A stretch of DNA of 64,000 nt, taken from the NCBI GenBank assembly GCA_014685065.1, contig GCA_014685065.1_4092.1. One strand, written 5' to 3'. The translations under genes were made by a program, and so were the position numbers. Below, piece after piece: positions 3,043-57,698 of the stretch. The notes beneath the pieces were generated by a model, which saw only the letters and a list, made by a program, of their open reading frames with translations, did no database searches and had not been told where the DNA came from. The DNA is from a phage. Each line of letters starts with the position of its first letter. The stretch's first letter is position 1.

Positions 3043-3043
3043 T

Positions 3044-4633: not shown

Positions 4634-4640
4634 AATATAC

Positions 4641-4670
4641 GGAGAGTCTTTTTGACTCTCCTTTTCTTTT
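4641..4670 (+). terminator. intrinsic terminator
   Basis: GGAGAGTC ttttt GACTCTCC then TTTTCTTTT. Confidence 0.7.
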
Positions 4671-4681
4671 GGAGAAATAAT

Positions 4682-5687: not shown

Positions 5688-6268
5688 AAGCAAAAGACTT
5701 GGCAGCACTGTTGATGCAGAATCCTGAAATGGAAGTGTATCATGAGCACATGCACATTGATGACATGTGTGACGCTTACTATTCACCAGAAAATGTGTCT
5801 GGTATTGAAATCACCCCTAGTGGAGTATTCATCAGTACTGAACGTATTGATTATAATTCCCAGCAAGAAATCAAAACTCCACATAATAAACCTCGCATTG
5901 GTGCAATTGACCTAGTATTTCATCAGGACCGTTTGGTGGAATATGATGAAGACGATGGTACTACCCGAACTGATGTTGAGAATGTTGTTTTTCGTTTTTA
6001 TAATGCATACGAAGACCCAACTACTGGAGAAGATTTCTTCCGTGAGCTATTAGAGGATGGAGAAGTTTATGGTCAGGATGGTACGGTTTTTGTACTAGAC
6101 CCTAACTATGAGCCAGATCACAATACATGGCAATTCTATACACCAGAAGATGTAATGGAAGTTAAAGTACTTATGGATATTGACGATAAATGGAATCCTA
6201 TGTATACTTCAATGACATATGAAGAAGCCAAAGAATACTTCGTTTCTAAACTAAACATTACAAAATAA
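5684..6268 (+). CDS. hypothetical protein, paralog family B
   Basis: paralog of 4682-5314. Confidence 0.55.
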   Translation: MKAKDLAALLMQNPEMEVYHEHMHIDDMCDAYYSPENVSGIEITPSGVFISTERIDYNSQQEIKTPHNKPRIGAIDLVFHQDRLVEYDEDDGTTRTDVENVVFRFYNAYEDPTTGEDFFRELLEDGEVYGQDGTVFVLDPNYEPDHNTWQFYTPEDVMEVKVLMDIDDKWNPMYTSMTYEEAKEYFVSKLNITK

Positions 6269-6285
6269 TAAGGATTCACAAATTT

Positions 6286-6567
6286 ATGAAAATTGTTGCA
6301 AGTGCATGGATGAAACTACCAGATGGTACAACTGCTTTTGAAGAATATGGCTTTGTTGAAAGTGTCGATGAATTAAAGCGTTTCAAAAGTGAAAATGATG
6401 ATGATGTGTTTGATATTGTATTTGTATATCATCATATTCCTAATGATACTGATTATGAACATTATTATTATCATCCTGATTTGTTGGAAACACTTGTATG
6501 CGACAACTATCATGAAATTGATGAAAATACAGCTTTACTAATGTTGAGTACCGTATCTCCGGTATAA
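6286..6567 (+). CDS. hypothetical protein
   Basis: ORF with AAGGA RBS. Confidence 0.5.
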   Translation: MKIVASAWMKLPDGTTAFEEYGFVESVDELKRFKSENDDDVFDIVFVYHHIPNDTDYEHYYYHPDLLETLVCDNYHEIDENTALLMLSTVSPV

Positions 6568-6575
6568 GGAGTAAT

Positions 6576-7055
6576 ATGTATAATCTTATAATTATCCGCG
6601 AACCATATGAATCTGACAACAGTTCAACTGATGGTGAGGTTTTAGTATATCAAAGTTATGAACAAAGTGGTATTGAACATGAATTAAAAGATTATTTACG
6701 TCAACATATATATCTATATCGTACAGAACCACGTGAACAGTATGGAGATATAATGTTTATCGTAACTCATAATGGTGCAGTAATTGAACATGTAAATATG
6801 ACAAATAACATGTATTTTCATAATTACACTGACACGTCTAAAGAATTAGGAAACGATTTCAAGTCTGTTTTCGATGCATTGCGTATCAATTTTTTTAAAA
6901 ATGACAAATTCTGTACTGATATTAGATTAGAAGAAGCAAATACAAAAAAGAAACTTTCTCGAAAATACGAGAGTGATAGAAAAAAAGAACAAGAGATTCA
7001 GCGTTTACACGAATTGATGAAAAAATACCCTAATGAGGTACAGCATGGCTCTTAG
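6576..7055 (+). CDS. hypothetical protein
   Basis: ORF with AAGGAG RBS. Confidence 0.5.
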   Translation: MYNLIIIREPYESDNSSTDGEVLVYQSYEQSGIEHELKDYLRQHIYLYRTEPREQYGDIMFIVTHNGAVIEHVNMTNNMYFHNYTDTSKELGNDFKSVFDALRINFFKNDKFCTDIRLEEANTKKKLSRKYESDRKKEQEIQRLHELMKKYPNEVQHGS

Positions 7056-23081: not shown

Positions 23082-25189
<2,108 letters not shown>

Positions 25190-35328: not shown

Positions 35329-37293
35329 TTATCTAATTGTTACCAATGTTCTTCCGTCGAAACGTACATCAGGAGTTGAAGGTATACTAAACACTACGTT
35401 AGTGCCGTTAAACGTAACGCTATCGACCTCAACACGAGTATAGACACCAGGACTAACCTGTTCCTGTATCTCTGCTGTGACGATGTTTGAGGCTGTTACA
35501 GTAAGGGTGTAGTAGTTACCACTTAATACCCAAGATGAAATGGTAAAAGCATCGGTTCTCACTGAACCTGAACCAATCGGAACCCATTGACCTTGAACTT
35601 TTTGCATTGAAGTACGCTCGGTATTTGAGTATGCAATCATACCATCAACGCCAACAGAGTTATCAATAGTTGCTAGTACTGGTAATTGGATACCATATCT
35701 ATTAAAACGTGTTCTTATAGTTCCATTATCATAGATACTTACATCAGCATAATTACCCATTGATAGTTTTAAATCAGAACTAACTAATTGGATTGTACTT
35801 TGATTAGTAGTACTTTCTAATGTAATTATACCATTAGCTAATAGATTTATATTTTTAAATTTATTAGTTGTTCCATTGAAATTAGTGTTTGCTGTAAACG
35901 TACTAACTCCATTAACTGTAATTGTATCTGATGCAGCATCGCCTAATATGGTATTACCTTGAATGTTCAAATTACCACTAGCAGTGATATTACTAGCTGA
36001 TGTATCACCAGTCAATGTGCTTGTACCATCAACCACAATATTACCATGAAACGCACTTTCACCATTTTTAAATTCAACTTGTACTTTATTCATTGAACTA
36101 AATGAAATAATATTACTACTAGCACTTAGTCCAACATTAGTATTGGTTGCATTATCAAATCTTAGTACTGGGGTTGATGCTGGGGTTGAAGTTGTTTGGT
36201 ATAATGTTAATGTTGAATTATTAATTCTAATACGTTCAGTTCCCGCAGTACTGAAACCAATTGCATCATCTGCTGGATGAAACATACCAGTATTAGCGTC
36301 TGACCATTTTGCAGGATCATTACCTGGGTTATTGGTTGGATCAAATGGATTGTTATTAAATGTCAATGCTGGTGCTGCTGCACTACCATACACCACACCA
36401 AAACGCCCTGAGCCGCTTGTTCCATCATTATACATGGAATCACCAGTTCTACGTAAACATTCAATCACAACGTTATCTATGGATGTTTGTACGGTTCCTG
36501 CGTTCGTTCTAAATTGACGATGGTTTGCAATCATTACTGTATTGTCATATAATACAGAAGCAGCAGAAATGCTTGTTCTTGACTGGCGTAGACGTATGTT
36601 TTTATCTTCAGTTATAATGATCCAATCACCATCTGATAGTGCGGTTTGGTTCATTGGAACGCCTGAAGCAAATGGTTTGGTTAAGTCAGCATCTGTTGCT
36701 AAATTTTTAAGACCATCATGACCAGTACTAGGAATAGATGCAGTAATAATTCTTGCAAAAGCGTATGTTACAAGTTTAGCACCAGATATATTTGGATTGG
36801 AGTCAACATAATATAAAATTTCAATCCAATTACCTTGACCAGTTGGGTTCGTAGGTGTAAATGTAACCGGACTTGTTTGTGGGTTATTTGCTTCAAAGTG
36901 TGCTTGTGCTGCATCCATAATACCACGAACAACATAATAATCACCATTTAGTGATGCTGCTGGTGCTGGTAGTGGCGTTTGTGCTAAAGGTGGGTCAATA
37001 TCATCTGGAATAGGATTATATGTACCAACAAACTGCAAACCACTAGTTACTGAATCTGGTAATTGGGAAGTAAGAAGTTTACCATTTGCATCTAAGTTTG
37101 CAAAGCGGCGATATGCCATAGTACCATCTTCAAAATCCAGAACACCTTCAAATGATTTCCATTCCTTATTGTATCTAATCATCCCTGATCTTATTACATC
37201 AGCGGTTTCTTTTGATGGTGCTTTCGGTAACTCTAAAAAAGATTTACTATCAATAATTACACCACCATCACCTCTAATTCGATTTATACTCAT
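35329..37293 (-). CDS. tail fibre protein
   Basis: 654 aa, N/T/S/G-rich beta-type composition, GAGGA RBS. Confidence 0.55.
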   Translation of the reverse strand: MSINRIRGDGGVIIDSKSFLELPKAPSKETADVIRSGMIRYNKEWKSFEGVLDFEDGTMAYRRFANLDANGKLLTSQLPDSVTSGLQFVGTYNPIPDDIDPPLAQTPLPAPAASLNGDYYVVRGIMDAAQAHFEANNPQTSPVTFTPTNPTGQGNWIEILYYVDSNPNISGAKLVTYAFARIITASIPSTGHDGLKNLATDADLTKPFASGVPMNQTALSDGDWIIITEDKNIRLRQSRTSISAASVLYDNTVMIANHRQFRTNAGTVQTSIDNVVIECLRRTGDSMYNDGTSGSGRFGVVYGSAAAPALTFNNNPFDPTNNPGNDPAKWSDANTGMFHPADDAIGFSTAGTERIRINNSTLTLYQTTSTPASTPVLRFDNATNTNVGLSASSNIISFSSMNKVQVEFKNGESAFHGNIVVDGTSTLTGDTSASNITASGNLNIQGNTILGDAASDTITVNGVSTFTANTNFNGTTNKFKNINLLANGIITLESTTNQSTIQLVSSDLKLSMGNYADVSIYDNGTIRTRFNRYGIQLPVLATIDNSVGVDGMIAYSNTERTSMQKVQGQWVPIGSGSVRTDAFTISSWVLSGNYYTLTVTASNIVTAEIQEQVSPGVYTRVEVDSVTFNGTNVVFSIPSTPDVRFDGRTLVTIR

Positions 37294-37380: not shown

Positions 37381-38871
37381 TTAAACTACAGAAACCCCAC
37401 TCATTGAAGGTGGAACGATTTGCTCAGCAATTAATAATAAATTAGTGACTGTAAACTTGCCACCATGTGACATTAACGTAATAGGTGTTCCATTAGTTAC
37501 TAGGTTACCATTTTCATCAACACTTAAAAATGTATTAAATGAAATAGTATCAACTGTGATTGTTGGTGTTCTAACTTGGTTAATATTATTAAATTGAGTA
37601 TTTGTAAAATTAATAGCAAAACTCATATTAGATGAACTAGTAGTCCATGTACCGTATATATTTAATTTGAAATTTAGAGATGAATTGAAATTATAAACAT
37701 TTAGCTTATTACTTGTTGTATTGAAGAAACTATCTAGTGTTCCACTAGTGGGGGTCAATGATTTAAGTATTTGAATTAAATTCTGTTCAATACCATCTGT
37801 GAATTGTATATTTAAGTTTGAATAATATAATTCTCTTTTTCTACGAACTAGGTTAGTAGTATTATTACCATTAACAAATAATCCAGAACTATCTGATGTT
37901 AATATATTACCAGAGGTATTACTTATTTTAGACGAAATAACATTACTGTCAATAGTTATACCATTTCCAGCAGTATATGAGGATGGTCCAGTCGGTACAT
38001 ATAACCCATTTACGTCAGTTGTTAAAGTATTTCCTGGTGTTGTGCTTATTTTGGTTGAAATTGTTTCTGAACTAATTGATATACCAGTACCACCAACGTA
38101 ATTTATTCTTGTATTAGGCACAAACAATCCAGTACTGTCAGTAGATAGTATATTACCAGAAGTAGAACTAATTTTAGCACTTATTATATCAGAATTAATT
38201 GAAATTCCGTTACCAGCATTATAAGTTACAGTATTGTTAGGAACAAATAAACCATTGCTAGTAGAAGATAATATATTTTCTGGCGTAGGGTCAACCTCAA
38301 CACTAATCACTTCATCACTAATTACAATCCCATTACCCGCATTGTACGTTATCGAATTATCAGGTACGAATAGACCCGTACTATCAGTTGTAAGGATATT
38401 TCCTAAAGATGTGCTTACTTTTGATGATATAATATTATTATCTATTTTAATACTGTCACTACCTGTATATGTTACTGTATTATCAGGTACATATAAACCA
38501 TCTTCGGCAATAGTAAGGATGTTATTAGGTGATGTACTTATTTTAGTTGAGATAGTATTATCACTTATTGTCACACCAGTGCCACCAGAATACACAATTG
38601 ATGTATTAGGAACATATAAACCATTAGAATCATTACTAAGAATATTTCCTTGTGTTGAACTGATTTTTGTTGATATTAAATTAGAGGTTATTGATATACC
38701 AGTACCACCTTGATAGTTAATAGTGTTATCTGGAACATATAAACCATCACTTTCATGAATTAAAATATTTTTATTTTTAGAACTAATATCAGGTACTGGA
38801 ATCTTACCTATTAGAACACCGTCATAACTGATATCACCATTTACAATAATATCTGTTCTTATATTATACAT
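37381..38871 (-). CDS. tail fibre protein with ~35-aa tandem repeats
   Basis: repeating unit GNIL..D..GL(Y/F)VP(D/N)N...Y.(A/G)G.GI.I....IS.K(I/V)S at least eight times. Confidence 0.55.
   Translation of the reverse strand: MYNIRTDIIVNGDISYDGVLIGKIPVPDISSKNKNILIHESDGLYVPDNTINYQGGTGISITSNLISTKISSTQGNILSNDSNGLYVPNTSIVYSGGTGVTISDNTISTKISTSPNNILTIAEDGLYVPDNTVTYTGSDSIKIDNNIISSKVSTSLGNILTTDSTGLFVPDNSITYNAGNGIVISDEVISVEVDPTPENILSSTSNGLFVPNNTVTYNAGNGISINSDIISAKISSTSGNILSTDSTGLFVPNTRINYVGGTGISISSETISTKISTTPGNTLTTDVNGLYVPTGPSSYTAGNGITIDSNVISSKISNTSGNILTSDSSGLFVNGNNTTNLVRRKRELYYSNLNIQFTDGIEQNLIQILKSLTPTSGTLDSFFNTTSNKLNVYNFNSSLNFKLNIYGTWTTSSSNMSFAINFTNTQFNNINQVRTPTITVDTISFNTFLSVDENGNLVTNGTPITLMSHGGKFTVTNLLLIAEQIVPPSMSGVSVV
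37880..38810 (-). repeat. tandem ~105-nt coding repeats inside fibre gene
   Basis: periodic amino-acid motif in translation. Confidence 0.5.
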
Positions 38872-38928: not shown

Positions 38929-39708
38929 TTAACGTATACGTTCAGGAATATCAATACCTTCATATACCCAAGTTGCAGCTTGTTGTGCTTTATAAATTGC
39001 ATCAGGATCTAAATCATTAACTGCATCAATTGCAGCACACTGACGATCACATTCAGCAAACAACTGTTCTACCATCGCAAATGCTTCAGTATATAGTTGT
39101 GTCATTTCAGCAGCAGATAGTTTAACTATTGCATCATCGAGAAATATAGAGACAGTTTCAGCACCAGAAGTTACTTGAGTATAATAATTAAGTAACATTT
39201 GACGACCAGCTAGATCAGTACTATAACGTTGTCCTTTAAACAAATAACCACGATTAATACGTTCACCACGTTCTGCTACAGTTCTGGATTTTAAATCATA
39301 TTTCACATCAGTGATATTCATATCAACGTAATGGTATGTTTTCAGTACTGTTAATGCTTTATACTCTGATGTAGCTTCTTCAATAAATTCAACAACTGGT
39401 TGATTATCATCTTTTAACTTAATAAACTCCAATGGTTGTTCAATAGCATTAACATTGCCAATATTTTTATACACTAACCACCAAAAACCTTCTTCTTTTC
39501 TAACAGCATCATTAGGTTCCACTGGAGAACCATCTTTACTTGAAATACCATAAAGAGTTCTAATATCACTATAAAGATAACGATAGGTTTGTGGATCTTC
39601 TGGTGTAGCACCTGGACGTTCTTTCAATCCTTTTACACCAATTGGGTTAGAAATAATGCTACCCAATTCATAATTTTCTTTTGAATTTCCTTTCACATAT
39701 GTGAACAT
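38929..39708 (-). CDS. hypothetical protein downstream of long fibre gene (possible fibre assembly factor, position only)
   Basis: ORF 259 aa, GAGG RBS. Confidence 0.3.
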   Translation of the reverse strand: MFTYVKGNSKENYELGSIISNPIGVKGLKERPGATPEDPQTYRYLYSDIRTLYGISSKDGSPVEPNDAVRKEEGFWWLVYKNIGNVNAIEQPLEFIKLKDDNQPVVEFIEEATSEYKALTVLKTYHYVDMNITDVKYDLKSRTVAERGERINRGYLFKGQRYSTDLAGRQMLLNYYTQVTSGAETVSIFLDDAIVKLSAAEMTQLYTEAFAMVEQLFAECDRQCAAIDAVNDLDPDAIYKAQQAATWVYEGIDIPERIR

Positions 39709-39771: not shown

Positions 39772-42700
39772 TTAAGCTGTACGTTGTGCAATAAACATAT
39801 CTACAACTGGACTTACACCATCATAAATGACTTGGTAAATGGTCACAGAGTTTGCAGTTTTGTTTAGAGTGCCATCAACAACCGCATAAGTACCATCAGT
39901 AGTAAAGTTTCTGTTACCAGTTGCATCTTGTTTCACATAAATGTATACTGAAGATGCTTTACCACCACCGATTAGACCAGTGATTGGTGCTAGAGTTGTA
40001 TCTTGATCAAGGGTGATAAAGTATACGTTGCTAGTACCATCAGGAGTCCAAGTACCAGTTGGTGCAATAACAGAAGAAGTTACTTGATTAGGAATAACAT
40101 CATATTTTTTAGTAGTTACAGTAGTAGTAGTTAAATCAGCATTAGTTGTTGTTAGTTGACCAGTAACTGTTACATTTTTGTCAAACACAGCATTTTCTTT
40201 GAAAGAAGATGTTGCATTAACAGTTAATGTATCAGCAGCAGCGTCACCTAGAACAACACTACCATTTGCAGTCATTAAACCAGTAACAGTTAAAGTACCA
40301 CCTACGGTTGCTGCACCAGTTACAGATGCACTAGCAAGAGTAGCTGCACCAGAAGTAGTAATTGTAGTTACAGAAGTAGCACCAAGGGTAGCAGTACCAG
40401 TTGCAGAAATATCACCACCGACAGTTAGGTTACCAGAAGTAATACCAACAGTTCCTGTGATATTCGCACCACTTGACATAGTAACTGCACCACCGAATGA
40501 ACCAGTAGTAGTTACTTCAAGAGTGTTACCTTTTAGTAAACCAGTTGCAGTAATGCTTGTTCCTGCGGTAATACTAGTACCAGCAGCAACACTGTTAGTT
40601 GCAGTTAAAGATTTAACAGCCACATCAGAGTTAGCTTGGTTTAGCGTTGCGTTTAGAACACCCGTTACTGTAAAGTTACCATTGTTAACTACGTTACCAT
40701 TGATGGTTAAGTTGTTGTTTTGTGAACCAACATCACCAATAGTTGCAGATTTAGAAATCAATTCTGCACCAGATGTGATATTACCTGCTGCACTAATAGT
40801 ATCAGCAGCAACAACAGCATATGGTTCGATAGTTTGACCACTAACATCGATATCAGCGTTGATACCACCGTCTACACGCAAGGAACCTGCGATGTAAGTG
40901 TTAGGGAAAATCTGAACTGTTTCTGGTTGATCACCAATTTTTGTACCAATTACAACGTTCGCACCAGTTTTAACTGCACCAGATGTTGTTAGTGAACCTA
41001 AAGTTGCTTCACCAACTACACCTAATGTACCACCTACGGTTGCGTTATTAGTAACTGCCAAAGCTGTTCCTTCACCGTTAAGGGTGATAGATGGAGCAGT
41101 CGCTGCACCAGTTACGCCCAATGTACCACCTACGGTTGCGTTGCCATCAGAATGTAGTGTAGTAGCTACAGAAAGACTGTTTGCAACTACATCAGTACTT
41201 GCAAGATCCAATGCACCTGGTGTTAATGTACCAGTAATGTTAACATTATTACCAAAGGTTGCTGCACCAGTAACATCTAGAGTTGTACTAAATGTACCAG
41301 AAGTTGCAGAAACAGCACCAGAATCTAGTGAACCGACAGTTGCTTTTCCAGTTACACCTAGTGTACCACCTACAGTTGCGTCGGTTGTTACACCTAATGT
41401 ACCAGTACTAACTTCTTGAGCGGTTGCTTTACCAGATGCAGTAATAGTTGAAGTAGATACTCCCCCAGTTAATGTGCTTGCACCAGTTACTGCTAAAGTT
41501 GTTGCTGCTGTTACGCTGTTCACGTTAAGGTCAGCACCAGCTAGGTTCAAACCACCTTCAGGAATAAATTCACCCTTCACTGTTAGTTTTTGTACTGTAC
41601 TATCACCAGTGACTGCTAGTGTAGATGCAGTTAAACCACCATTCATACTAGCTGCACCAGTTACACCGAGTGTAGTGGTTACAACAGCACTATTAAGAGT
41701 AGCAGTGTCGGAAATATTAGCACTTGGTGCAGCAATAGTCCCAGCATCAACTTGAATACCACCAGTAACAACTTGGATACCACCAGCATTAACAGTGAGT
41801 TTACCAGCAGTGTTTAAGGTATTTGATACAGTTGTAGCACCAGATAGTGTACTTGTACCAGTAACACTTAGATTACCAGAAATTATTGGGCTACCAGTTA
41901 CATTACCAGTTGTTAGAATTAAATCAGTACCTACAGTTGTAGAACCAGTACTTTCTAATGTTACACCAACAATGTTAGAAGAACTTAGGTTAATTGAACC
42001 TGTTACAGTCAAGTCACCATTAACAGTTGCGTTACCTAGTGAATTTAATGATTTCACTGAAACATCAGTAGTGCTAAGGTCAATTACACCCGCAGTTAAT
42101 GTACCAGATACAGCCAAATCACCAGTGATTGCAGTGTTTTTAGTAATAGAAACACTTTCAGCAGCAGAAGTTAGAGAACCAACAGTCAAAGCACCGCCGA
42201 CAGTGGCGTTATTAGTAACGTTAAGTGCAGTACCAACACCAGATAGTGTTGCAGACGCACCATTAACAGCACCAGAGATATTTGCATTTGCAGCAGATAC
42301 ATCACCTGAAACAGCCGCAGTTGTTGCATTTACTGTAGTTGCGGTAATATCAGTACTTTGTACTTTTGGTAGTAGGTTAACACCTTCAGCACTACTAACA
42401 GTGATGATTCCAGCACTTGTTAGAGATTTTACTGATACATCAGCAGCAGATAGGTCTACAGTACCAGAAACAACAAGGTCACCACCAATATTTGCACCAG
42501 CAGTTGTTGTGATTGATTTAGCATTAACATCAGTTGTTGTTAAATCAATAGCACCTGGTGTTACTGTACCAGAAACTGTTAGGTCACCAGTAATAGATGT
42601 ATTATTAGCAATAGATACACCCGCAGTATTACCAATGGTTGGAACTTCAATAGAAACTGCTGTAACTTTACCAGAAGATGTTACATCAGCAACAGAAGTT

Positions 42701-45297
42701 GCACCAGTTACATTCAAATTAGTAATATTCGCAGTAGTAGAACCTAGAGTTGCAATTGTCGCATCAGTACTTTGTAGTTTAGGTAGAACACTACTAATAG
42801 TTGATTCATTACTAACGATTGCACCAGTACTGGTTAGAGATTTAACTGTTACATCAGCAGCAGTTAGGTCTACTGTACCGTTAACGGTTAAGTTTCCACC
42901 AATTGTTGCACCAGCAGTTGTTGTGATTGATTTAGCGTTAACATCAGTTGATGCTAGGTCGATAGATCCAGGAATCACAGCACCACTAACAGTTAAGTCA
43001 CCAGTGATAGAAGTATTATTACCAATTGTAACACCAGTTACATTGGAAATAGATGGAGTAACTAGAGATGCAGTTGTTGTTTCACCACTTACATTTAAAG
43101 TTGTTCCGACTACAACATCAGCACTTGTACGAACAGATGCTAGATTAGATGGACCTGTTACCGCAAGTTCAGTTGCATTAACAGTATTAATTGTTGCAGT
43201 AGTACTATTAAGTACTGGTAAAACGTTGGCGTTAACCAAATCATTACTTTTAACAATACCAGAAGTTGTTACAGATTTAACGTTAAGGTCAGCGGCTGAT
43301 AAATCAAATGACCCTTGAACAACTAAATCACCACCAATTGTTGCACCAGCAGTTGTTGTAATAGAGTTTGCATTAATATCAGTAGTGCTTAGATCTAAAG
43401 AACCTACAGTTAAACTACCAGTAATATCAACGTTTTCAGTAAAGTTAGTATTTCCAGTAATAGTTGGAGCAGAAAGACTTGTAGCACTAATAGTTGTACC
43501 ATTAATAGTTCCACCACTTAGTATACCACTTGCAGTAATAGTTGGAGCACTTACTTCAGTGGATGCAGTAATAGATGGTGCAGATACAGATGTTGTACCA
43601 GTAATAACACCAGCATTAATAGAACCAGCAGATAATGCACCAGATAGATTTGCAGTAGTACCTGCAATATCACCTGTAACGGTTAGTTTAGCACCTACAG
43701 TAGTATTTCCAGTACTTTCAAGAGTTGCACCTTTCACGTTTGCAGCAGCTACAACAGAGTTAGGAGTTAAGTTTTGACCACTAACATCAACAGTTAGGCC
43801 AGTAACAGTACCAGTGAAATCAACATCATTAAGAATAGTTTTACCACCAACTTGTAGGAATGGTGTACCTGGGGCTTGTGTTTCATTACCAGTGATAGTT
43901 AGGTAATCTAGTTTGTTAAGACCGTTACCAGTAATACCATAGGTAGATAGTGAAGCATTACCAAAAGTTGCGGTTTTTAGAACATTCAATGTTGCAGGTG
44001 AAACAACTTCTGATTGAACTTCGTTAGGTAAAATAACAGTTGGGCGTTGGCCTGGTGCTGTATATCCAAATCCTAATTTAACTGCTGCATCTTGACTGTT
44101 TTGACCCAAGCTAATGGATTTGAAAGAAGCAGTACTATTAAAGCCAGTGATATTTGAACCTAAAGTTACTGCACCAGTTAGTGAAGATGTACCAGTAACA
44201 TTCAATGAAACTGCATTAATATCGTCAAGTTGGAATGTACCACCTAGTAGACCAGAAACGTTAATGTTATTAAAGTTTGCGGTTCCTGTACTTTCAATAT
44301 TTGGAATAGTTGCTGTACCAGTAACTTCAAAGTCAGCAACTTTGGTTTTACCCTTTTGAACTTCCAATAGTGGGGTGTCTGGTGATTGAGTATTGTTACC
44401 AGATACAGTTAGGTAATCTAGTTTGTTAAGACCGTTACCAGTAATACCATAAGAAGAAAGAGAAGCGTTACCAAATGTTGCAGATGTCAAAACTGTTAAA
44501 TTTGCAGGTGACATTAATTCAGATTGAATTTCGTTTTGAAGAACTACAGTAGGACGTTTACCCGGAGCACTGTAAGGGAAGCTTAGTCTGAAGGTTTGAG
44601 ATTCAGAGTTGGAACCAATACGAATGTCTTTAAAAGTAGCAGTACTGTTAATACCAGTTACGTTAGCACCGAAAGTCACTGCACCTTGTTGGTTAGATGC
44701 ACCAGAAACGTTCAATGTTACTGCATTTAAGTCAGAAAGATTAAACTGACCACCTAATGTACCACTAATGGTTACATCTTTAAAAGTAGCAGTTCCAGTA
44801 CTACTAATATCGGTTGTACTTACATTAGTAATTTCTGCGGTATTAGCAGTAATTTTATCAAATGCAGCAGTAGTACCAACATCAGCAGTAATATTACCTT
44901 TAAATGCTGTTGTTTCAGCAACTTCTAAGTTTTTAACTTTAGTTGCTTGTAGAGTGGTTGTACCAGCAGTTTGTGTAAAATCAGAACCAACTGATACAGT
45001 ACCGTTAAAGGTAGCGTTTGAATTAATTGTTGCTGTATCAGACCCGACAACTGCACTACCGATTGTAGTATTACCCTCAACACCAAGACCACCAGAAAGT
45101 GTTGCTTTGCCACCAACATCTAAAGTAGATGTAATGTTGGCAGTTGATGATTCAATGGCAGTAAAAGTTGCATTTGCAAAAGTTACAGTACCATTTACAG
45201 TTAGGTTATTATTGAAAACAGCATTTCCTTTGACTAAAAGATCCTTACCAACCGTACCAGCACCAGTAATATCTAAGTCAGTTTTTATTGAGTACAT
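39772..45297 (-). CDS. long tail fibre protein (1841 aa) with extensive T/G/S/A/V-rich repeats
   Basis: continuous ORF, GGAGGG RBS, low-complexity beta-strand-like repeats. Confidence 0.6.
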   Translation of the reverse strand: MYSIKTDLDITGAGTVGKDLLVKGNAVFNNNLTVNGTVTFANATFTAIESSTANITSTLDVGGKATLSGGLGVEGNTTIGSAVVGSDTATINSNATFNGTVSVGSDFTQTAGTTTLQATKVKNLEVAETTAFKGNITADVGTTAAFDKITANTAEITNVSTTDISSTGTATFKDVTISGTLGGQFNLSDLNAVTLNVSGASNQQGAVTFGANVTGINSTATFKDIRIGSNSESQTFRLSFPYSAPGKRPTVVLQNEIQSELMSPANLTVLTSATFGNASLSSYGITGNGLNKLDYLTVSGNNTQSPDTPLLEVQKGKTKVADFEVTGTATIPNIESTGTANFNNINVSGLLGGTFQLDDINAVSLNVTGTSSLTGAVTLGSNITGFNSTASFKSISLGQNSQDAAVKLGFGYTAPGQRPTVILPNEVQSEVVSPATLNVLKTATFGNASLSTYGITGNGLNKLDYLTITGNETQAPGTPFLQVGGKTILNDVDFTGTVTGLTVDVSGQNLTPNSVVAAANVKGATLESTGNTTVGAKLTVTGDIAGTTANLSGALSAGSINAGVITGTTSVSAPSITASTEVSAPTITASGILSGGTINGTTISATSLSAPTITGNTNFTENVDITGSLTVGSLDLSTTDINANSITTTAGATIGGDLVVQGSFDLSAADLNVKSVTTSGIVKSNDLVNANVLPVLNSTTATINTVNATELAVTGPSNLASVRTSADVVVGTTLNVSGETTTASLVTPSISNVTGVTIGNNTSITGDLTVSGAVIPGSIDLASTDVNAKSITTTAGATIGGNLTVNGTVDLTAADVTVKSLTSTGAIVSNESTISSVLPKLQSTDATIATLGSTTANITNLNVTGATSVADVTSSGKVTAVSIEVPTIGNTAGVSIANNTSITGDLTVSGTVTPGAIDLTTTDVNAKSITTTAGANIGGDLVVSGTVDLSAADVSVKSLTSAGIITVSSAEGVNLLPKVQSTDITATTVNATTAAVSGDVSAANANISGAVNGASATLSGVGTALNVTNNATVGGALTVGSLTSAAESVSITKNTAITGDLAVSGTLTAGVIDLSTTDVSVKSLNSLGNATVNGDLTVTGSINLSSSNIVGVTLESTGSTTVGTDLILTTGNVTGSPIISGNLSVTGTSTLSGATTVSNTLNTAGKLTVNAGGIQVVTGGIQVDAGTIAAPSANISDTATLNSAVVTTTLGVTGAASMNGGLTASTLAVTGDSTVQKLTVKGEFIPEGGLNLAGADLNVNSVTAATTLAVTGASTLTGGVSTSTITASGKATAQEVSTGTLGVTTDATVGGTLGVTGKATVGSLDSGAVSATSGTFSTTLDVTGAATFGNNVNITGTLTPGALDLASTDVVANSLSVATTLHSDGNATVGGTLGVTGAATAPSITLNGEGTALAVTNNATVGGTLGVVGEATLGSLTTSGAVKTGANVVIGTKIGDQPETVQIFPNTYIAGSLRVDGGINADIDVSGQTIEPYAVVAADTISAAGNITSGAELISKSATIGDVGSQNNNLTINGNVVNNGNFTVTGVLNATLNQANSDVAVKSLTATNSVAAGTSITAGTSITATGLLKGNTLEVTTTGSFGGAVTMSSGANITGTVGITSGNLTVGGDISATGTATLGATSVTTITTSGAATLASASVTGAATVGGTLTVTGLMTANGSVVLGDAAADTLTVNATSSFKENAVFDKNVTVTGQLTTTNADLTTTTVTTKKYDVIPNQVTSSVIAPTGTWTPDGTSNVYFITLDQDTTLAPITGLIGGGKASSVYIYVKQDATGNRNFTTDGTYAVVDGTLNKTANSVTIYQVIYDGVSPVVDMFIAQRTA

Positions 45298-45390
45298 TTA
45301 TACCCTCCATTATAACCTTGTTAATATGTATATATTTAGTTTTATTATGCTGTTATCCAACAATTAATACATTATTTGACAAAAGCAAAT

Positions 45391-45428
45391 ATAATAAAAA
45401 ACCAGACTTATTTAGAACAAGTCTGGTT
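45391..45428 (-). terminator. intrinsic terminator (minus strand)
   Basis: AACCAGACTT / AAGTCTGGTT hairpin then TTTTATTAT on minus strand. Confidence 0.6.
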
Positions 45429-46347: not shown

Positions 46348-48489
46348 TTATGGTAGGGTTATGTAAGTTACGGGTTGGGCGGCTTTTAATGCTGCACCAG
46401 CGGCAGTTGCTGTTATGATAGGATCTGCAATATCAATTCTATATACGTTGTTTACAACATACACTGCACGAGTTATATACGTTCTCAAATCACCACCATT
46501 TTCACCAGCACCAGATATAATAATCTCAGTACCAGCAGCTTTTGCATATTGGTTTTCACCCCATGACACACCCAATGCTTCTATATATGTTTGTCCTACT
46601 ACGGTTTGTCTAATAGTGTCGTATTTTCCGAAAAAAGAACCACCAACGGTCACAATATATTTTCCACCAGATTGCTTATGTATAATAGTACCTTCTGGGA
46701 AATAACGACCACCCGGAAAAGTGTCGTAGGGAATATAATATTGTTCAACTACTGGTATCAGTACTGGGCCACGGTGACCTGTACCATCGATTGCAGTTGT
46801 AACTTTAAAGTTATTAGATGATTGGTCTATTCTGTCTACATACATTTTAGAAAAACTATATTTTGAAACATTACAATCATCTTGAACAACACAGTTAGTC
46901 CAATTAGTATAAGTATATTTAGAGCGAGTATAGATACCACCACCTTCGCCTTCTGTAGAGAGATGTTGACCAATTACGTCTAATTCTTTAGTTCTAATAT
47001 CACTAAATTTAGATGATGATGGTAAACCACGCCAAAGAATTTTAGAACAGGTGATATTGCTCAATTCTGTATTATTTAACCAATTGTCAGAACCGGAAGT
47101 ATAAACAAGTATAGAAGACTCTGGAATATAGAGATTAGAAATTTTAAAGTTTCTAGGTGGTCCAGCAAAACGACCAGAAGTTACACCCCAGTTTATTGAA
47201 ACCATTCTATTTGTGATAGAAGGATCATTAAGCAAATGACCAGTCAACCCATCAATAATGAATTCTTTAGAACCATAAGTTATAACACCAGCAGTGGTTA
47301 ATCCAGTACCGACAGAAACTAAAGATGATGGATAAACTTCATTATTAAGTATTTTAAAGTCCATGCCTAATTCAACGTGGATACATTGTCTAACATTATA
47401 TAGTCTGTTATTTTTAATAACAAAGTTTCTGACATATTGTGTATCTGGTGCATCTAAACCATAAGGACCAGAACCAGCAACACCAATACCAATACCCCAG
47501 TTTGAAAGTGGGATTGGAGCGTTAGAACCATCAACGTTTTCAATTATGTTCCCTTCAATAACAAAACCATCAGGATAGTGTGAGTTAATTACGTTTAGTT
47601 CAATTGCATCACCATATATATCATGTATGTGGTTATATGAATATCTACCAACCTTCATTTTCTCACCAGTACCTTGTTGAAGAACACCATACTTACATTG
47701 GGTCATTTCATTAAAGCAAAAATCTATTGTACCTGGTTGTGTCATGCCTTGCATTAAAAATGCAGCAGTACTTGTGATGTTTATAAATTTATTAAAATAA
47801 AACTTACCATCGCCACCGAAGAATTTTAAATAACATCCAGTAAGTGTTGCAAATTGTATTTGGGAATTAATAACGGATACCATAGTACCACCGTTACCAG
47901 TAATAGTTCCCCCAAACCAAGTTACATCTTCCAGATATATTGCCGTTTTGATACGGTAATTACCACCAGCCTGAATTTGTATTTTATTTTCTTTAGCATA
48001 CGCAGCACATAAATTTACAGCAGCAGTGTCATCAGTTTCGCCATCACCTTTAGCACCAAATTCTTCTGGTGTTATATAAAACTGTGCCTGTTGAACTGTA
48101 CCTCCAGTAATAAGTCCGATGAAATCTCCACCATTTTTACTGGATAGAACTTTTTTATTAATGTATAATGATTTTACCCATGTACCATTGCTTTTTGCAA
48201 AAATATCAACAATACCATCTTCATCAATTTGAAAATACGTATTATTGTTCTTTCCTATATCATCGGTAGGTGGTACAACACCAAATAATGCATTAGGGTT
48301 ATCTTCAAGATATTTTACGTTAACTGCTGAATTAGGATCAGATGAAGTTCCTACCTTCAGTGGTAGGAACTGTTCTCCTAGATAATCTTTTATAGAAACT
48401 GAATCATTGATAAAATTTATTGAAGCACCTTTTTTCCCCAATATGAATTTGGGCTGCATAGTTCCTTCAAAATTAGAAAATACTGCCAT
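46348..48489 (-). CDS. tailspike with right-handed beta-helix (pectate-lyase-like) domain, probable polysaccharide depolymerase
   Basis: N-terminal anchor MAVFSNFEGTMQPKFILGKKGASI; beta-helix-like repeats with GDAIEL, NNRLYN motifs; GGGAGGA RBS. Confidence 0.55.
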   Translation of the reverse strand: MAVFSNFEGTMQPKFILGKKGASINFINDSVSIKDYLGEQFLPLKVGTSSDPNSAVNVKYLEDNPNALFGVVPPTDDIGKNNNTYFQIDEDGIVDIFAKSNGTWVKSLYINKKVLSSKNGGDFIGLITGGTVQQAQFYITPEEFGAKGDGETDDTAAVNLCAAYAKENKIQIQAGGNYRIKTAIYLEDVTWFGGTITGNGGTMVSVINSQIQFATLTGCYLKFFGGDGKFYFNKFINITSTAAFLMQGMTQPGTIDFCFNEMTQCKYGVLQQGTGEKMKVGRYSYNHIHDIYGDAIELNVINSHYPDGFVIEGNIIENVDGSNAPIPLSNWGIGIGVAGSGPYGLDAPDTQYVRNFVIKNNRLYNVRQCIHVELGMDFKILNNEVYPSSLVSVGTGLTTAGVITYGSKEFIIDGLTGHLLNDPSITNRMVSINWGVTSGRFAGPPRNFKISNLYIPESSILVYTSGSDNWLNNTELSNITCSKILWRGLPSSSKFSDIRTKELDVIGQHLSTEGEGGGIYTRSKYTYTNWTNCVVQDDCNVSKYSFSKMYVDRIDQSSNNFKVTTAIDGTGHRGPVLIPVVEQYYIPYDTFPGGRYFPEGTIIHKQSGGKYIVTVGGSFFGKYDTIRQTVVGQTYIEALGVSWGENQYAKAAGTEIIISGAGENGGDLRTYITRAVYVVNNVYRIDIADPIITATAAGAALKAAQPVTYITLP

Positions 48490-55409: not shown

Positions 55410-57698
55410 ATGAATCTTACTCAATTGTTCAAAAAAAGCGACGAACTGGCAACATCTCTAGGTCATACATTCTTGACTATTGACCACGTAAGTGCCACAG
55501 TACTGACTATTGATAGCATCAAGAACGTATTTGAAGATATGAACATTGATGCAGACAAACTGCACAACCGCCTGATGAACTATCTTAAAAATACAACAGT
55601 TCCACATGCACCAAAAAGTGTTAAAGATGAAGACGCGAATCGCACTTCACTTCTAGTGAATCGCGTTGTACATGAGCTTTCTAAAAAATCAGTTATTGAA
55701 CAACTAAAAAGTGATGATTTTTCGATTGATGCATATTTTGTTCTATTCGAATGTCTGTCTTTCCCTAACACAGCACTAGAAGCTGCGTTGAAAGAAGAAG
55801 GTGTTAGCTGTACTGAAGCTGCACGTGCATTGCAAAAACACGTTGAGTCACTTGATAAGGGTATCAACTTACAAAGTATTAATGACGAACCGATTGGAGA
55901 TAAAAAAGTGGCCCAACAGCAGCAATCATCTAAACAAAAAGGTTTGGAAGACTATACAACGAATCTAACTGCTCTTGCAAAAGAAGGCAAACTAGATCCT
56001 ATGATTGGTCGCCAGAAAGAATTGTCTGCATTGATTGAGACTCTTGCTCGCAAAACCAAAAAGAATGCTATTCTTACTGGTGAAGCTGGTGTAGGTAAAA
56101 CACAAATCATCGACGGTCTTGCACAAGCTATTGCTGACGGCAACGTACCTGAACACCTGAAAGACGTTGAAATTCTTTCACTAAATGTTGGTGCATTGAC
56201 TGCTGGTACTAAGTATCGTGGTGAGTTTGAAGAACGCATCGACAATTTGCTAAAAGAACTAAAGAAACGTGAAAATACTATTGTTTTCATTGATGAAATT
56301 CATATTATGGTTGGGGCTGGTTCCGCAAGTAATGGTTCTATGGACATGAGCAATATGCTTAAGCCAGCACTTTCACGTGGTGAGATTCGTGTAATTGGTG
56401 CAACAACATATGATGAATATCGTAAAAATATCGAGAAAGATAGTGCATTAACTCGTCGTTTTATGAAAATTGATGTAGTTGAGCCGTCAATTGATGAAAC
56501 TCGTGCAATTGTTAATGGTTTGAAACCAACTTATGAAAAATTCCATAATGTTGAGTTCACAACTGATGCAATGGATGCTGTAATTTCTCTCAGTGATAAA
56601 TTCCTGAAGAATAAGCACTTCCCAGATAAAGCAATTGATCTAATGGACGCTGCTGCTGCAAAAGTTCGTTCACGTGACAACAATAGTAAGCTTATTACTG
56701 CCAATTTGATTCAAGAAGTTGTTGCTGGTATTGCCAATTTGGATATCAACGTGGTTGCATGTACTGAAAGTGATCGTATGCGTAATCTACCAGATGCACT
56801 ACGCTCACGTGTATACGGTCAAGAGGAAGCTATTCAAAAATTAGTTGATAACGTGATGGTAGCTCGTGCAGGACTGCGTGACAAATCTAGTGTTCAGGGT
56901 GCATTTATGTTTGTTGGACCATCTGGTACTGGTAAAACAGAAATTACCAAAGCATTAGCAGATGCAACTGGTGCGGAACTGATTCGCTTTGATATGTCAG
57001 AATTTTCTCAAGAACATACTGTTTCTAAACTAATTGGTTCACCTCCAGGTTATGTTGGTCATGATTCTGGTAACGGTTTACTGTTGGATAAAATTGAGCA
57101 GTTCCCTAATGCAGTACTGTTACTTGATGAAATTGAAAAAGCAGATCGTAAAGTACTACTAACCTTCCTACAGGTTTTGGATGAAGGTCGCCTGACTGGT
57201 TCACAAGGTAAAACTGTATATTTTAATAACGTAACTGTTATTATGACTACAAACCTTGGTGCGGCAGATTCAACGAAGCGTAGCATTGGTATGAGCGGTA
57301 GTGATACTGCACAAGACAAGGCAATTAAAGCATTCTTGCCACCAGAGTTTATTAACCGTATTGATAGTATCGTTACGTTTAAAGACCTAAGCAGTGAAGC
57401 TATTGACAGCATCATTGATAAGTTCATGGGCAGTTTGAATGAACAAGTCAAAGACCGCAATGTTAAAGTTACATTGACAAAAGCTGCACGTGAATGGCTT
57501 GCGAAAAATGGGGTAAAAGTTGGCATGGGTGCACGTCCAATGAAACGTACCATTGAACAAAACATTCGTGTACCACTAGCTAAAGAAATGTTGTGTGGTT
57601 CACTTGTGAATGGTGGTAACATTACATTTGATGTTATTGATGGTAAAATCGGTATTAAACCGAAACGTACCAAAGCTGTAGATAAAGCACTGGCATAA
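55410..57698 (+). CDS. clpA: ClpA-like two-ring AAA+ unfoldase (ClpA/B N-domain, D1, D2, no ClpB-type middle domain, IGM loop)
   Basis: two Walker A ([16 protein letters not shown]), Walker B ([15 protein letters not shown]), [22 protein letters not shown] tripeptide loop; near-colinear with E. coli ClpA from memory; AGGAG RBS. Confidence 0.85.

What the first reader, a model, noticed from the sequence alone, without database searches (positions are those of the whole stretch)
39772..45297. 1841-aa repetitive fibre gene whose antisense strand yields long spurious ORFs
Seen: a continuous minus-strand ORF with a good RBS encodes T/G/S/A/V-rich repeats typical of fibre shafts; the plus strand over the same interval carries many long P/V/A/T-rich ORFs (up to 507 aa) that are composition artefacts. 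The length and repeats suggest an unusually long or branched fibre; repeats may drive recombinational length variation.
Basis: seen in the sequence. Interest (0 to 1): 0.4.

Follow-up and report, generated by a model that had tools for sequence, protein, structure and literature searches.

The report
Jumbo-phage long tail fibre gene
This is the already-annotated, virion-proven long tail fibre gene of a 121Q/phAPEC6-type jumbo coliphage; the long ORFs on its opposite strand are by-products of its odd amino-acid make-up, and its internal repeats do change fibre length between related phages.

Summary
A 5526-nt minus-strand ORF (39772-45297, 1841 aa, 180 kDa, GGAGG RBS) lies in an Asteriusvirus (121Q/phAPEC6-like) window. 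It is the orthologue of 121Q gp571, phAPEC6 gp256 and CBB_226, and the last two were detected in virions by mass spectrometry.

The five long plus-strand ORFs are spurious. They share one antisense frame, where stops need sense Tyr/Gln/His codons, and sense aa 660-1168 has 0 Tyr, 0 His and 3 Gln. Synonymous shuffling gives an ORF of 507 aa or more in 20% of trials. In 121Q the 507-aa ORF has four stops and no start. Sense dN/dS is 0.09.

The protein has an invariant N-terminal anchor, two 170-aa modules, a repetitive beta-solenoid shaft and a common fibre-tip domain. Relatives gained whole units: JP4 +170 aa (a hybrid module with the switch at a conserved stretch where the window's two modules share an exact 45-nt repeat), JP4/UB +112 aa (bounded by direct repeats 336 nt apart). 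From aa ~160 onward the gene is a divergent exchanged cassette, a new allele (83% nt identity or less centrally).

Homologues occur in flagellotropic phages, so flagellum binding is the likeliest role, but this is inferred. Overall the gene is ordinary and of low-to-moderate interest.

The parts
39772..45297 (-). Long tail fibre CDS, 1841 aa, 180 kDa (stop codon 39772-39774)
   Evidence: sense dN/dS 0.09 against 121Q, substitutions by codon position 132/65/533
45304..45308 (-). Ribosome-binding site GGAGG, 6 nt before the ATG
45400..45428 (-). Intrinsic-terminator-like hairpin plus T-run ending the upstream 298-aa gene; an AT-rich spacer of about 100 nt follows before the fibre gene
44836..45297 (-). 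N-terminal anchor region, aa 1-154. It begins with MYSIKTDL, invariant in the 23 jumbo-phage homologues apart from one T-to-S change, and is nearly identical to 121Q (3 mismatches in the first 480 nt)
44326..44835 (-). Module A copy 1 (aa 155-324). The divergent cassette begins at its start, gene nt ~480
43816..44325 (-). Module A copy 2 (aa 325-494), 62% aa identical to copy 1
44407..44451 (-). Exact 45-nt direct repeat, copy 1 (encodes YGITGNGLNKLDYLT). It lies in the zone where JP4's hybrid third module switches parent
43897..43941 (-). Exact 45-nt direct repeat, copy 2, 510 nt from copy 1
41932..43464 (-). Shaft units B (aa ~612-1122): 3-4 tandem units of 138-145 aa at 44-54% identity. This is the most divergent part against relatives and the region under the 507-aa antisense ORF
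   Evidence: (family D2)
41035..41370 (-). 112-aa shaft unit (aa 1310-1421), single here and tandemly duplicated in JP4 and UB
41326..41381 (-). Direct repeat bounding the 112-aa unit, upstream copy (encodes ..ATVGGTLGVTG..)
   Evidence: (D14)
40990..41045 (-). Direct repeat bounding the 112-aa unit, downstream copy: 86% identical, 336 nt (= 112 codons) away
   Evidence: (D14)
39775..40107 (-). C-terminal tip domain (aa ~1731-1841). All-beta, pLDDT 83-93 over roughly the last 100 residues, shared with many phage tail fibres including phiTE's
41795..43318 (+). Spurious antisense ORF, 507 aa
   Evidence: four internal stops and a lost start codon in 121Q; no PHROG hit; overlies sense aa 660-1168, which have 0 Tyr, 0 His and 3 Gln
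40178..40837 (+). Spurious antisense ORF, 219 aa, same antisense frame
41084..41419 (+). Spurious antisense ORF, 111 aa, same frame; start codon lost in 121Q
43385..43777 (+). Spurious antisense ORF, 130 aa, same frame
44768..45367 (+). Spurious antisense ORF, 199 aa, same frame; runs out into the intergenic spacer
38929..39708 (-). Downstream 259-aa DUF4376 protein, co-diverged with the fibre body (dS 0.40 against 121Q) and probably co-transcribed. Its CBB orthologue (CBB_225) is a virion protein

Best explanation
The minus-strand ORF is the structural gene for the long tail fibre of an Asteriusvirus-type jumbo myovirus.

Shown:
- It is a conserved virion protein under strong purifying selection.
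- Its parts are a lineage-specific N-terminal anchor (aa 1-154), two 170-aa 'A' modules, a long Thr/Gly/Ser/Ala/Val-rich shaft with a ~6/12-residue hydrophobic period (beta-solenoid type) built from diverged 112-145-aa units, and a ~110-aa beta-sandwich tip domain common to many phage fibres.
- The opposite-strand ORFs are by-products. In the one antisense frame whose wobble position coincides with the sense wobble position, a stop can only arise opposite a sense Tyr, Gln or His codon, and the shaft almost lacks these residues.
- The internal repeats are recombination substrates, because related phages carry whole extra units with junctions inside the shared repeat sequences.
- Relative to 121Q, everything from the anchor/module-A boundary to the downstream DUF4376 gene is a swapped, more divergent cassette.

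Inferred:
- The protein is a homotrimer about 100-150 nm long.
- It mediates the first, reversible contact with the host, most likely with the flagellar filament.
For: Identity and expression:
- PHROG 4549 'tail fiber', E 1e-223.
- 92% aa identity and the same length as 121Q gp571 and phAPEC6 gp256, in conserved gene order.
- gp256 (180.38 kDa) has 15 unique peptides and CBB_226 has 10 unique peptides in virion MS.
- dN/dS is 0.09.

Architecture:
-.
- The tip domain has pLDDT 83-93 and matches many fibre C-termini in BFVD.
- The phiTE long tail fibre chain 9cuy_g matches a jumbo-only profile at E 4.5e-70 from its residue 180 to its end.

Antisense ORFs:
- All five lie in one frame with only 30 stops. 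29 of them lie opposite Tyr or Gln codons and one opposite the gene's own stop codon.
- The synonymous-shuffle null gives a mean of 423 aa and reaches 507 aa or more in 20% of trials.
- The 507-aa ORF is broken in 121Q, and none of the four antisense ORFs scanned has a PHROG hit.

Length variation:
- JP4 has +170, +6 and +112 aa; UB has +6 and +112 aa.
- JP4's middle module is an A2-5'/A1-3' hybrid.
- The window carries an exact 45-nt repeat.
- The 112-aa unit is bounded by repeats 336 nt apart.
- Three A modules also occur in the distant homologues P0002, P0011 and P0012.

Cassette:
- dS is 0.35-0.86 in the fibre body and 0.40 in the DUF4376 gene, against 0.01-0.13 in the flanks. The breakpoint is at gene nt ~480.

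Flagellum link:
- Homologues occur in phiTE, CR3 and CR8, which use flagella (PMC7344957 and PMC11659082).
- fENko-Kae01 is flagellum-specific and its only long-fibre gene is the homologue (PMC11218385; H92).
- SHEFM2K (92% identical fibre, H61) is described as flagellotrophic (citation in PMC11895373).
Against: - No experiment shows which virion protein binds flagella in any of these phages. The SHEFM2K paper could not be read.
- The attachment site is unknown, because the N-terminal anchor is not homologous to phiTE's cryo-EM-resolved baseplate anchor.
- Trimer state and length are inferred. The monomer AF2 model of aa 1-500 was useless (pLDDT 47) and the shaft in the C-terminal model had low confidence.
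- EM of phAPEC6 and CBB shows only short baseplate fibres (CBB 28.6 nm), so a 100-nm baseplate fibre has not actually been seen.
- The tip domain is highly conserved while the shaft varies, which is unusual for a tip-binding receptor protein.
- The repeats in this allele are mostly old (62% aa, ~70% nt identity), so present-day recombination rates may be low apart from the 45-nt and 56-nt repeats.
Confidence: 0.85

Rival explanations
1. The protein is not a baseplate fibre. It forms the roughly 120-nm 'hairs' (whiskers) seen on the tail sheath, and perhaps the capsid, of hairy jumbo myoviruses (phAPEC6, CBB, fEgEco12), whose protein has never been assigned. Alternatively, the hairs are these fibres stowed along the sheath.
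For: - CBB hairs measure 119.3 +/- 10.4 nm while its baseplate fibres are only 28.6 nm. phAPEC6 shows 'six short tail fibers' plus hairs anchored in three rings. The authors could not assign the hair protein.
- The predicted fibre length is 119 nm (window) and 100 nm (CBB_226) by scaling from phiTE's 512 A for 793 aa, or 124-147 nm for an ideal triple beta-helix.
- RaK2, which has no hairs reported, has no homologue according to the CBB paper.
- The N-terminal anchor differs from phiTE's baseplate anchor.
Against: - GAP32 has the homologue, but hairs were not reported for it.
- The only relative with a structure (phiTE) has the fibre on the baseplate.
- The gene sits in a baseplate/tail-fibre gene cluster.
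- The length scaling is an inference from a predicted model.
- Capsid hairs look like separate trimers.
Confidence: 0.2
2. It is a proximal half-fibre in the T4 gp34 sense. Its conserved C-terminal domain is a joint that carries one or more separately encoded distal receptor-binding proteins (the 259-aa DUF4376 protein, the 496-aa knob protein), which would make a jointed or branched fibre.
For: - It is annotated 'long tail fiber proximal subunit' in 121Q, UB, CBB and GAP32.
- The downstream DUF4376 gene co-diverges with the fibre body, and its CBB orthologue is an abundant virion protein with 68.5% coverage.
- Both ends of the fibre are more conserved than the middle.
- A knob-domain gene sits in the same cassette.
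Against: - No sequence similarity to T4 gp34 was found. The family profile hits only phiTE in the whole PDB, and nothing was found in Pfam or NCBIfam.
- The C-terminal domain is the same small beta-sandwich that ends many fibres, and it also occurs as stand-alone ~150-aa proteins. This looks like a terminal tip rather than a joint.
- No partner interaction was tested.
Confidence: 0.3
3. One or more of the plus-strand ORFs (especially the 507-aa one) is a real overlapping antisense gene.
For: - The 507-aa length exceeds every one of 500 codon-permutation shuffles.
- The apparent dN/dS in that frame is below 1 (0.23-0.26).
Against: - A synonymous shuffle that keeps the sense protein gives 507 aa or more in 20% of trials.
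- The low dN/dS follows from shared wobble positions and is still 2-2.5 times the sense value.
- In 121Q, which has 92% protein identity on the sense strand, the ORF has four internal stops and GTT instead of GTG at its start. Two of the other three antisense ORFs checked also lose their start codon.
- There are no PHROG hits for the four antisense ORFs scanned.
- No antisense CDS appeared in any of the annotated regions inspected.
Confidence: 0.02

Closest known systems
Asteriusvirus tail fibre: 121Q gp571 ('long tail fiber proximal subunit') and phAPEC6 gp256 ('tail fiber protein', virion MS)
   Same: Same length (1841 aa), same gene order, and 92% aa identity. The N-terminal 160 aa and the C-terminal part are about 97-100% identical at protein level.
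   Different: Nucleotide identity is only 86.8% overall and 83% or less in the central shaft (dS 0.5-0.9, against 0.01-0.13 in the flanks). This is a different, exchanged allele of the fibre body together with the downstream DUF4376 gene. The window also has an extra 496-aa knob-domain gene.
JP4 / CRJP21 (2129 aa) and UB (1959 aa) fibre alleles
   Same: Orthologous and about 91% aa identical, with the same architecture.
   Different: They carry a third A module (JP4) and a duplicated 112-aa shaft unit (JP4, UB), plus a 6-aa insert.
Pectobacterium phage phiTE long tail fibre (PDB 9CUY/9MJN chain g, 793 aa; Certrevirus, flagellotropic)
   Same: Homologous from module A through the linkers and shaft to the C-terminal tip domain (E 1e-28 with the single sequence, 4.5e-70 with the jumbo-only profile). 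The paper describes the fibre as a trimer with a predicted extended beta-helix.
   Different: It is less than half the length and has one A module. Its N-terminal helical-bundle/globular baseplate anchor (the only part resolved experimentally, residues 14-171) has no counterpart here. Assigning the 793-aa chain to the LTF rather than the STF is my inference from the paper's description.
Mimasvirus and related jumbo-phage fibres: CBB_226, GAP32 'long tail fiber proximal subunit', fENko-Kae01 / Munch long tail fibre
   Same: Collinear homologues (31-41% identity) with the same MYSIKTDL start, two A modules, a shaft and a tip. Synteny with the DUF4376 gene and thyA is conserved. CBB_226 is in virions, and fENko-Kae01 is flagellum-dependent.
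   Different: They are shorter (about 1400-1640 aa), with different shaft units and different hosts.
T4 gp34 (long tail fibre proximal subunit)
   Same: A long trimeric repetitive fibre protein of a contractile-tailed phage. This is the source of the database name.
   Different: No detectable sequence similarity. No gp35/36/37-like partners were recognised next to it. The name is a label, not a demonstrated relationship.

Membership tests
Rak2-like jumbo-phage long tail fibre family (PHROG 4549; 121Q gp571 / phAPEC6 gp256 / CBB_226) | Full-length collinear sequence homology | tested here: met
   phrog_4549 at E 1.4e-223; 92% aa identity over 100% of the length to 121Q and phAPEC6; 31-41% identity to CBB, GAP32, Erwinia, Yersinia and Serratia jumbo phages.
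Rak2-like jumbo-phage long tail fibre family (PHROG 4549; 121Q gp571 / phAPEC6 gp256 / CBB_226) | Conserved gene neighbourhood (tail protein, structural protein, fibre, DUF4376 protein, ~650-aa structural protein, thyA) | tested here: met
   The window additionally has a 496-aa knob-domain gene.
Rak2-like jumbo-phage long tail fibre family (PHROG 4549; 121Q gp571 / phAPEC6 gp256 / CBB_226) | Invariant N-terminal MYSIKTDL, then two or three A modules and a conserved C-terminal tip | tested here: met
Rak2-like jumbo-phage long tail fibre family (PHROG 4549; 121Q gp571 / phAPEC6 gp256 / CBB_226) | Product present in the virion | not testable with these tools
   Shown by MS for the orthologues phAPEC6 gp256 (15 peptides) and CBB_226 (10 peptides), but not for this phage.
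Certrevirus (phiTE / CR3) long tail fibre | Homologous body: A module, TGTvtGltvDVsGqdltP linkers, shaft and C-terminal domain | tested here: met
   9cuy_g at E 1.3e-28; the jumbo-only profile gives E 4.5e-70 over chain residues 180-793.
Certrevirus (phiTE / CR3) long tail fibre | N-terminal helical 'rip-cord' bundle plus globular domain that docks on wedge 2A and the sheath initiator | tested here: not met
   Chain residues 1-179 do not match the jumbo-only profile. The apparent N-terminal match came from including the vequintavirus-type sequence P0024.
Certrevirus (phiTE / CR3) long tail fibre | Flagellum-dependent infection | not testable with these tools
   Reported for phiTE, CR3, CR8 and fENko-Kae01, and (by title and citation only) for Asteriusvirus SHEFM2K.
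T4 gp34-type proximal half-fibre | Sequence similarity to gp34 | tested here: not met
   The family profiles hit only phiTE in the PDB sequence set at E <= 0.01. That set holds gp34 fragments, to my recollection. There were no Pfam or NCBIfam hits.
T4 gp34-type proximal half-fibre | Distal partners (gp35/36/37 equivalents) joined at its C-terminus | not tested
   Neighbouring genes show DUF4376 and an Sf6-type knob, with no gp35-37 families. No interaction test was possible.
Trimeric autotransporter adhesin (YadA-like) / FliK, as labelled in some records | YadA head, stalk or anchor domains, or FliK domains | tested here: not met
   Pfam scans of the whole protein and of six segments gave only sub-threshold bactofilin-like hits (19.7-20.3 bits against a cut-off of 27.9). 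The 'FliK' CDSs in CMSTMSU are same-strand fragments of the fibre gene.
Overlapping antisense protein-coding gene | ORF and start codon conserved in relatives, longer than expected given the sense protein, with homologues | tested here: not met
   Four stops and a lost start in 121Q; p = 0.2 under the synonymous shuffle; no PHROG hits.

The most novel reading that the evidence does not exclude
This fibre family is the never-assigned ~120-nm 'hair' of hairy jumbo myoviruses, or those hairs are the fibres stowed along the sheath. On this reading it is also the organelle that captures the host flagellum. Gain and loss of 170-aa and 112-aa units would tune its length, and exchange of the shaft cassette would retarget it to different flagellins.
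Probability: 0.15. Interest if true: 0.6.

Novelty: new member of a known kind. Interest (0 to 1): 0.25.

Why it matters
As it stands, this is an ordinary annotated structural gene, and the main value is negative. The five long plus-strand ORFs should not be called as genes, and the reason is a simple, general rule: Tyr/Gln/His-poor proteins leave one antisense frame open. The 'proximal subunit', 'FliK' and 'YadA' labels in related records are not supported.

Two points are modestly useful to phage biologists:
- There is a documented case of fibre-length change by unequal recombination between internal modules, with the junctions identified.
- There is a clean anchor/body cassette boundary that could guide host-range engineering of Asteriusviruses.

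If the link to flagellotropism and to the unassigned tail hairs held up, it would answer an open question raised in the CBB (2017) and phAPEC6 (2020) papers.

Tried and rejected
1. Self-BLASTP of the whole protein returned nothing because the identity hit masked the rest. I redid it in chunks.
2. I suspected that the 'flagellar hook-length control protein' CDSs in CMSTMSU and EJP2 were annotated antisense ORFs. In CMSTMSU they lie on the same strand as the fibre and are fragments of it, so this idea is rejected.
3. Whole-protein Pfam and NCBIfam scans were empty. Segment scans gave only sub-threshold bactofilin-like hits. The precomputed PF26209 and PF26208 on homologues are not in the local Pfam copy and could not be named.
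4. The AF2 monomer model of aa 1-500 had pLDDT 47 and was not used for fold search. No fold could therefore be assigned to module A.
5. Foldseek against the PDB gave only weak matches for the tip domain (best E 0.06, Pa223 capsid spike).
6. The family-profile match to phiTE's N-terminus was an artefact of one vequintavirus-type row. It disappeared with a jumbo-only profile.
7. The SHEFM2K paper is not in the library, and the phiTE paper has no supplement held. So the flagellum claim for Asteriusvirus rests on a citation, and assigning chain g to the LTF rests on the text description.
8. Loci fetched in parallel calls did not all reach the sandbox. I worked around this with the alignment tools.
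9. The promoter scan found fewer sigma-70-like sites than in shuffles and was not informative.
Full report
**1. Observation**

The ORF list shows one uninterrupted minus-strand ORF at 39772..45297 (ATG start, 1841 aa). Five plus-strand ORFs of 100 aa or more lie inside it: 219, 111, 507, 130 and 199 aa.

The translation is Thr/Gly/Ala/Val/Ser-rich (62% in total). It has only 16 Tyr, 1 His, 1 Trp and 8 Arg, and the calculated mass is 180.04 kDa. GGAGG lies 6 nt upstream of the ATG. A terminator-like hairpin of the upstream gene lies at 45428-45400. Downstream, a hairpin without a T-run on this strand is followed at once by the RBS and ATG of a 259-aa gene, so the two are probably co-transcribed.

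**2. Where the window comes from**

The gene and its surroundings match about 350-kb Escherichia jumbo phages of the genus Asteriusvirus (121Q, phAPEC6, slurp01, G17, SP27, SHEFM2K, UB, JP4 and others). The orthologue is 121Q gp571, annotated 'long tail fiber proximal subunit', and phAPEC6 gp256. Both are 5526 nt.

The phAPEC6 paper lists gp256 as 'tail fiber protein', 180.38 kDa, with 15 unique peptides and 15.9% coverage in the virion proteome (PMC7247149). The Pectobacterium jumbo phage CBB has a collinear homologue, CBB_226 (1553 aa), in the same gene order, also found in virions with 10 unique peptides (PMC5259590). PHROGs places the window protein in phrog_4549 'tail fiber protein' at E 1.4e-223. 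The sense-strand product is therefore a proven virion component in close and distant relatives.

**3. The antisense ORFs**

All five plus-strand ORFs lie in the same antisense frame. That frame has 30 stops in 1842 codons, against 130 and 226 in the other two antisense frames.

In that frame the third codon position coincides with the sense third position. A stop can only form opposite a sense TAY (Tyr) or CAR/CAY (Gln/His) codon preceded by a suitable wobble base. Of the 30 stops, 19 lie opposite Gln, 10 opposite Tyr and 1 opposite the gene's own stop codon. The 507-aa ORF overlies sense residues 660-1168, which contain no Tyr, no His and three Gln.

| Null model | Longest antisense ORF | Trials reaching 507 aa |
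|---|---|---|
| Permuting sense codons | mean 209 aa | 0 of 500 |
| Amino-acid order kept, synonymous codons shuffled | mean 423 aa, 95th percentile 658 | 20% |

So the sense protein sequence fully accounts for the ORF.

Against 121Q, substitutions fall 132/65/533 on sense codon positions 1/2/3, and sense dN/dS is 0.09. The antisense frame shows 0.23 only because the wobble positions coincide. In 121Q the 507-aa ORF has four internal stops and GTT in place of its GTG start. Two of the other three ORFs checked also lose their start codon. The antisense translations are V/A/P/L/T-rich, and the four that were scanned hit no PHROG family.

I first suspected that the 'FliK' CDSs in the CMSTMSU record were such antisense ORFs. 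They are same-strand fragments of the fibre gene.

**4. Anatomy of the protein**

A chunked self-comparison, and comparison with 24 homologues, gives the following parts.

- **Anchor, aa 1-154.** This is beta-repeat-like. It starts with MYSIKTDL, which is invariant (one T-to-S exception) in all 23 jumbo-phage homologues, even at 31-36% overall identity. The motif is absent from the vequintavirus-type homologue and from every other ORF of the window.
- **Two 'A' modules of 170 aa (aa 155-324 and 325-494).** They are 62% identical to each other.
- **Linkers** of the type TGTVTGLTVDVSGQ.LTPNSV.
- **Shaft units of 138-145 aa (aa ~612-1122).** There are three to four, at 44-54% identity. Further units follow, including one of ~112 aa.
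- **C-terminal domain of ~110 aa.**

The shaft has a ~5.8/12-residue hydrophobic period and sub-threshold bactofilin-like similarity, which fits a beta-solenoid.

AlphaFold2 on the monomer failed for aa 1-500 (pLDDT 47). It gave a confident all-beta domain for roughly the last 100 residues (pLDDT 83-93). Foldseek finds that domain at the C-termini of many phage tail fibres and as stand-alone ~150-aa proteins (BFVD, rmsd 2-3 A over ~105 residues). The PDB gives only weak matches.

**5. Closest solved relative**

The only PDB sequence relative is chain g of 9CUY/9MJN, a 793-aa 'putative tail fiber protein' of Pectobacterium phage phiTE. From the paper's description this is its trimeric long tail fibre. 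It has an N-terminal helical bundle and globular domain resolved on the baseplate (residues 14-171), followed by a predicted extended beta-helix with a total length of 512 A (PMC11972413).

A family profile containing only jumbo-phage sequences matches residues 180-793 of that chain (E 4.5e-70) but not its anchor. An apparent anchor match seen with another alignment was caused by one vequintavirus-type row. Body and tip are therefore homologous, the anchor is not, and the attachment site of the window protein cannot be inferred by homology.

No similarity to T4 gp34 was detected, so 'proximal subunit' is a label only.

**6. Length variation and its mechanism**

Orthologues differ in length: 1841 aa (window, 121Q, phAPEC6), 1834 and 1827 aa (ph0011, UE-S1), 1959 aa (UB) and 2129 aa (JP4, CRJP21). 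The alignment places the differences as +170 aa after residue 400 (JP4), +6 aa after residue 631, and +112 aa after residue 1309 (JP4 and UB).

*The 170-aa gain.* It is exactly one A module. At sites that distinguish JP4's first and third copies, the middle copy follows the third (A2-type) copy for the first ~400 nt and then the first (A1-type) copy to the end. This is the product expected from unequal crossing-over between misaligned A2 and A1. The switch lies in the most conserved stretch, where the window's own two modules share an exact 45-nt repeat (44407-44451 and 43897-43941, 510 nt apart).

*The 112-aa gain.* It is a tandem duplication of the unit that in the window is bounded by 56-nt direct repeats, 86% identical and 336 nt (112 codons) apart. 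They lie at 41326-41381 and 40990-41045 and encode ..ATVGGTLGVTG...

Three A modules also occur in the distant homologues P0002, P0011 and P0012, so copy-number change has recurred. Heterogeneity within a population was not testable here.

**7. A swapped cassette**

Against 121Q, the flanking genes and the first 480 nt of the fibre gene are 97-99.8% identical (dS 0.01-0.13). From gene nt ~486, which is the anchor/module-A boundary, to the end of the gene, dS is 0.35-0.86. The downstream DUF4376 gene has dS 0.40.

The central shaft is at most 83% nt-identical to any phage in the collection. The window also carries a 496-aa gene with an Sf6-type knob domain between the DUF4376 gene and the next conserved gene. 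That gene is absent from 121Q, phAPEC6 and JP4.

This is the usual picture of host-range module exchange behind a conserved anchor. The allele is new, but the gene is not.

**8. Likely function**

*Shown:* a conserved virion fibre protein.

*Inferred, length:* a homotrimer of roughly 100-150 nm. Scaling from phiTE's 512 A for 793 aa gives 119 nm. An ideal triple beta-helix gives 147 nm. Three separate single-chain solenoids would give only ~49 nm.

*Inferred, role:* first contact with the host, most likely the flagellum. Homologues occur in the following phages.

| Phage | Reported receptor evidence | Source |
|---|---|---|
| phiTE, CR3, CR8 | Flagella are the receptor, whereas other Vequintavirinae use LPS and differ in fibre proteins | PMC7344957, PMC11659082; |
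| fENko-Kae01 | Resistant mutants map to fliC, fliG, flhA and flgH; the authors found a single long-fibre gene, which is the homologue | PMC11218385; |
| SHEFM2K (Asteriusvirus; fibre 92% identical) | Title 'flagellotrophic jumbophage' | Cited in PMC11895373; paper not readable, |

This is a correlation across three lineages, not a binding experiment.

**9. An open point**

EM of CBB and phAPEC6 shows only short baseplate fibres (28.6 nm in CBB), plus ~119-nm hairs on the tail whose protein is unassigned. A fibre protein of 1553-1841 aa is far too long for the short fibres and about the right size for the hairs.

GAP32 has the homologue but no reported hairs, and phiTE's homologue is on the baseplate, so I rate the 'hair' reading at about 0.15-0.2.

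**10. Verdict**

This is a known kind of gene (annotated, and MS-verified in relatives) in a new allele. Interest is low to moderate.

Noticed in passing
window 37381-38871 (-): A 496-aa gene with a C-terminal Sf6-type tail-needle-knob domain (PF16532, E 6e-28; phrog_1030) lies between the DUF4376 gene and the 654-aa structural gene. It is absent at this position in 121Q, phAPEC6, JP4 and CBB. BAU.Micro_ELP-22 has it, and UB has a 455-aa gene there. It looks like an accessory receptor-binding cassette.
   Followed up: partly
window 38929-39708 (-): The 259-aa DUF4376 protein just downstream of the fibre has co-diverged with the fibre body (dS 0.40 against 121Q, versus 0.01-0.13 for the flanks). 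Its CBB orthologue, CBB_225, is an abundant virion protein (16 peptides, 68.5% coverage). It is a possible fibre partner or tip component.
   Followed up: partly
window 46348-48489 (-); L003 4344-4949: A 713-aa pectate-lyase-like 'colanic acid-degrading' tailspike gene lies two genes upstream of the fibre. JP4 annotates only a 606-nt remnant at that position.
   Followed up: no
L007 (CMSTMSU) 69-6642; PBECO4 record KC295538 343191-347531: In the CMSTMSU and PBECO4 records the fibre gene is split into several same-strand CDSs labelled 'flagellar hook-length control protein', 'hypothetical protein' or 'YadA domain protein'. These are probably frameshift sequencing errors and misleading names.
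   Followed up: partly
records PP777464 (fEgEco12), OQ718158 (vB_Ec-M-J), PQ471515 (Turkey3), MH791411 (Ecwhy_1): A more distant Asteriusvirus clade (50-59% aa identity) annotates two adjacent 'long tail fiber proximal subunit' genes where the window has one; for example, P0004 is 1049 aa and covers 61% of the query. I could not tell whether this is a real split or a frameshift.
   Followed up: no
window 57735-63944 (-): This is another very long ORF (2069 aa, TTG start) near the end of the window. I did not examine it.
   Followed up: no
window 38234-38713 (+), 23708-24160 (-), 57059-57673 (-): Three other ORFs of 150-204 aa lie antisense to longer genes elsewhere in the window. They are probably the same kind of artefact, but I did not test them.
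   Followed up: no
homologues P0001-P0024: Homologues carry precomputed Pfam accessions PF26209 (nearly all) and PF26208 (phage A73). These models are not in the local Pfam copy, so I could not learn their names or extents.
   Followed up: partly
window 35329-37293 (-), aa 411-475: The 654-aa structural protein has a short stretch resembling the fibre's N-terminal beta-repeats (35% identity, E 1.6e-4).
   Followed up: no
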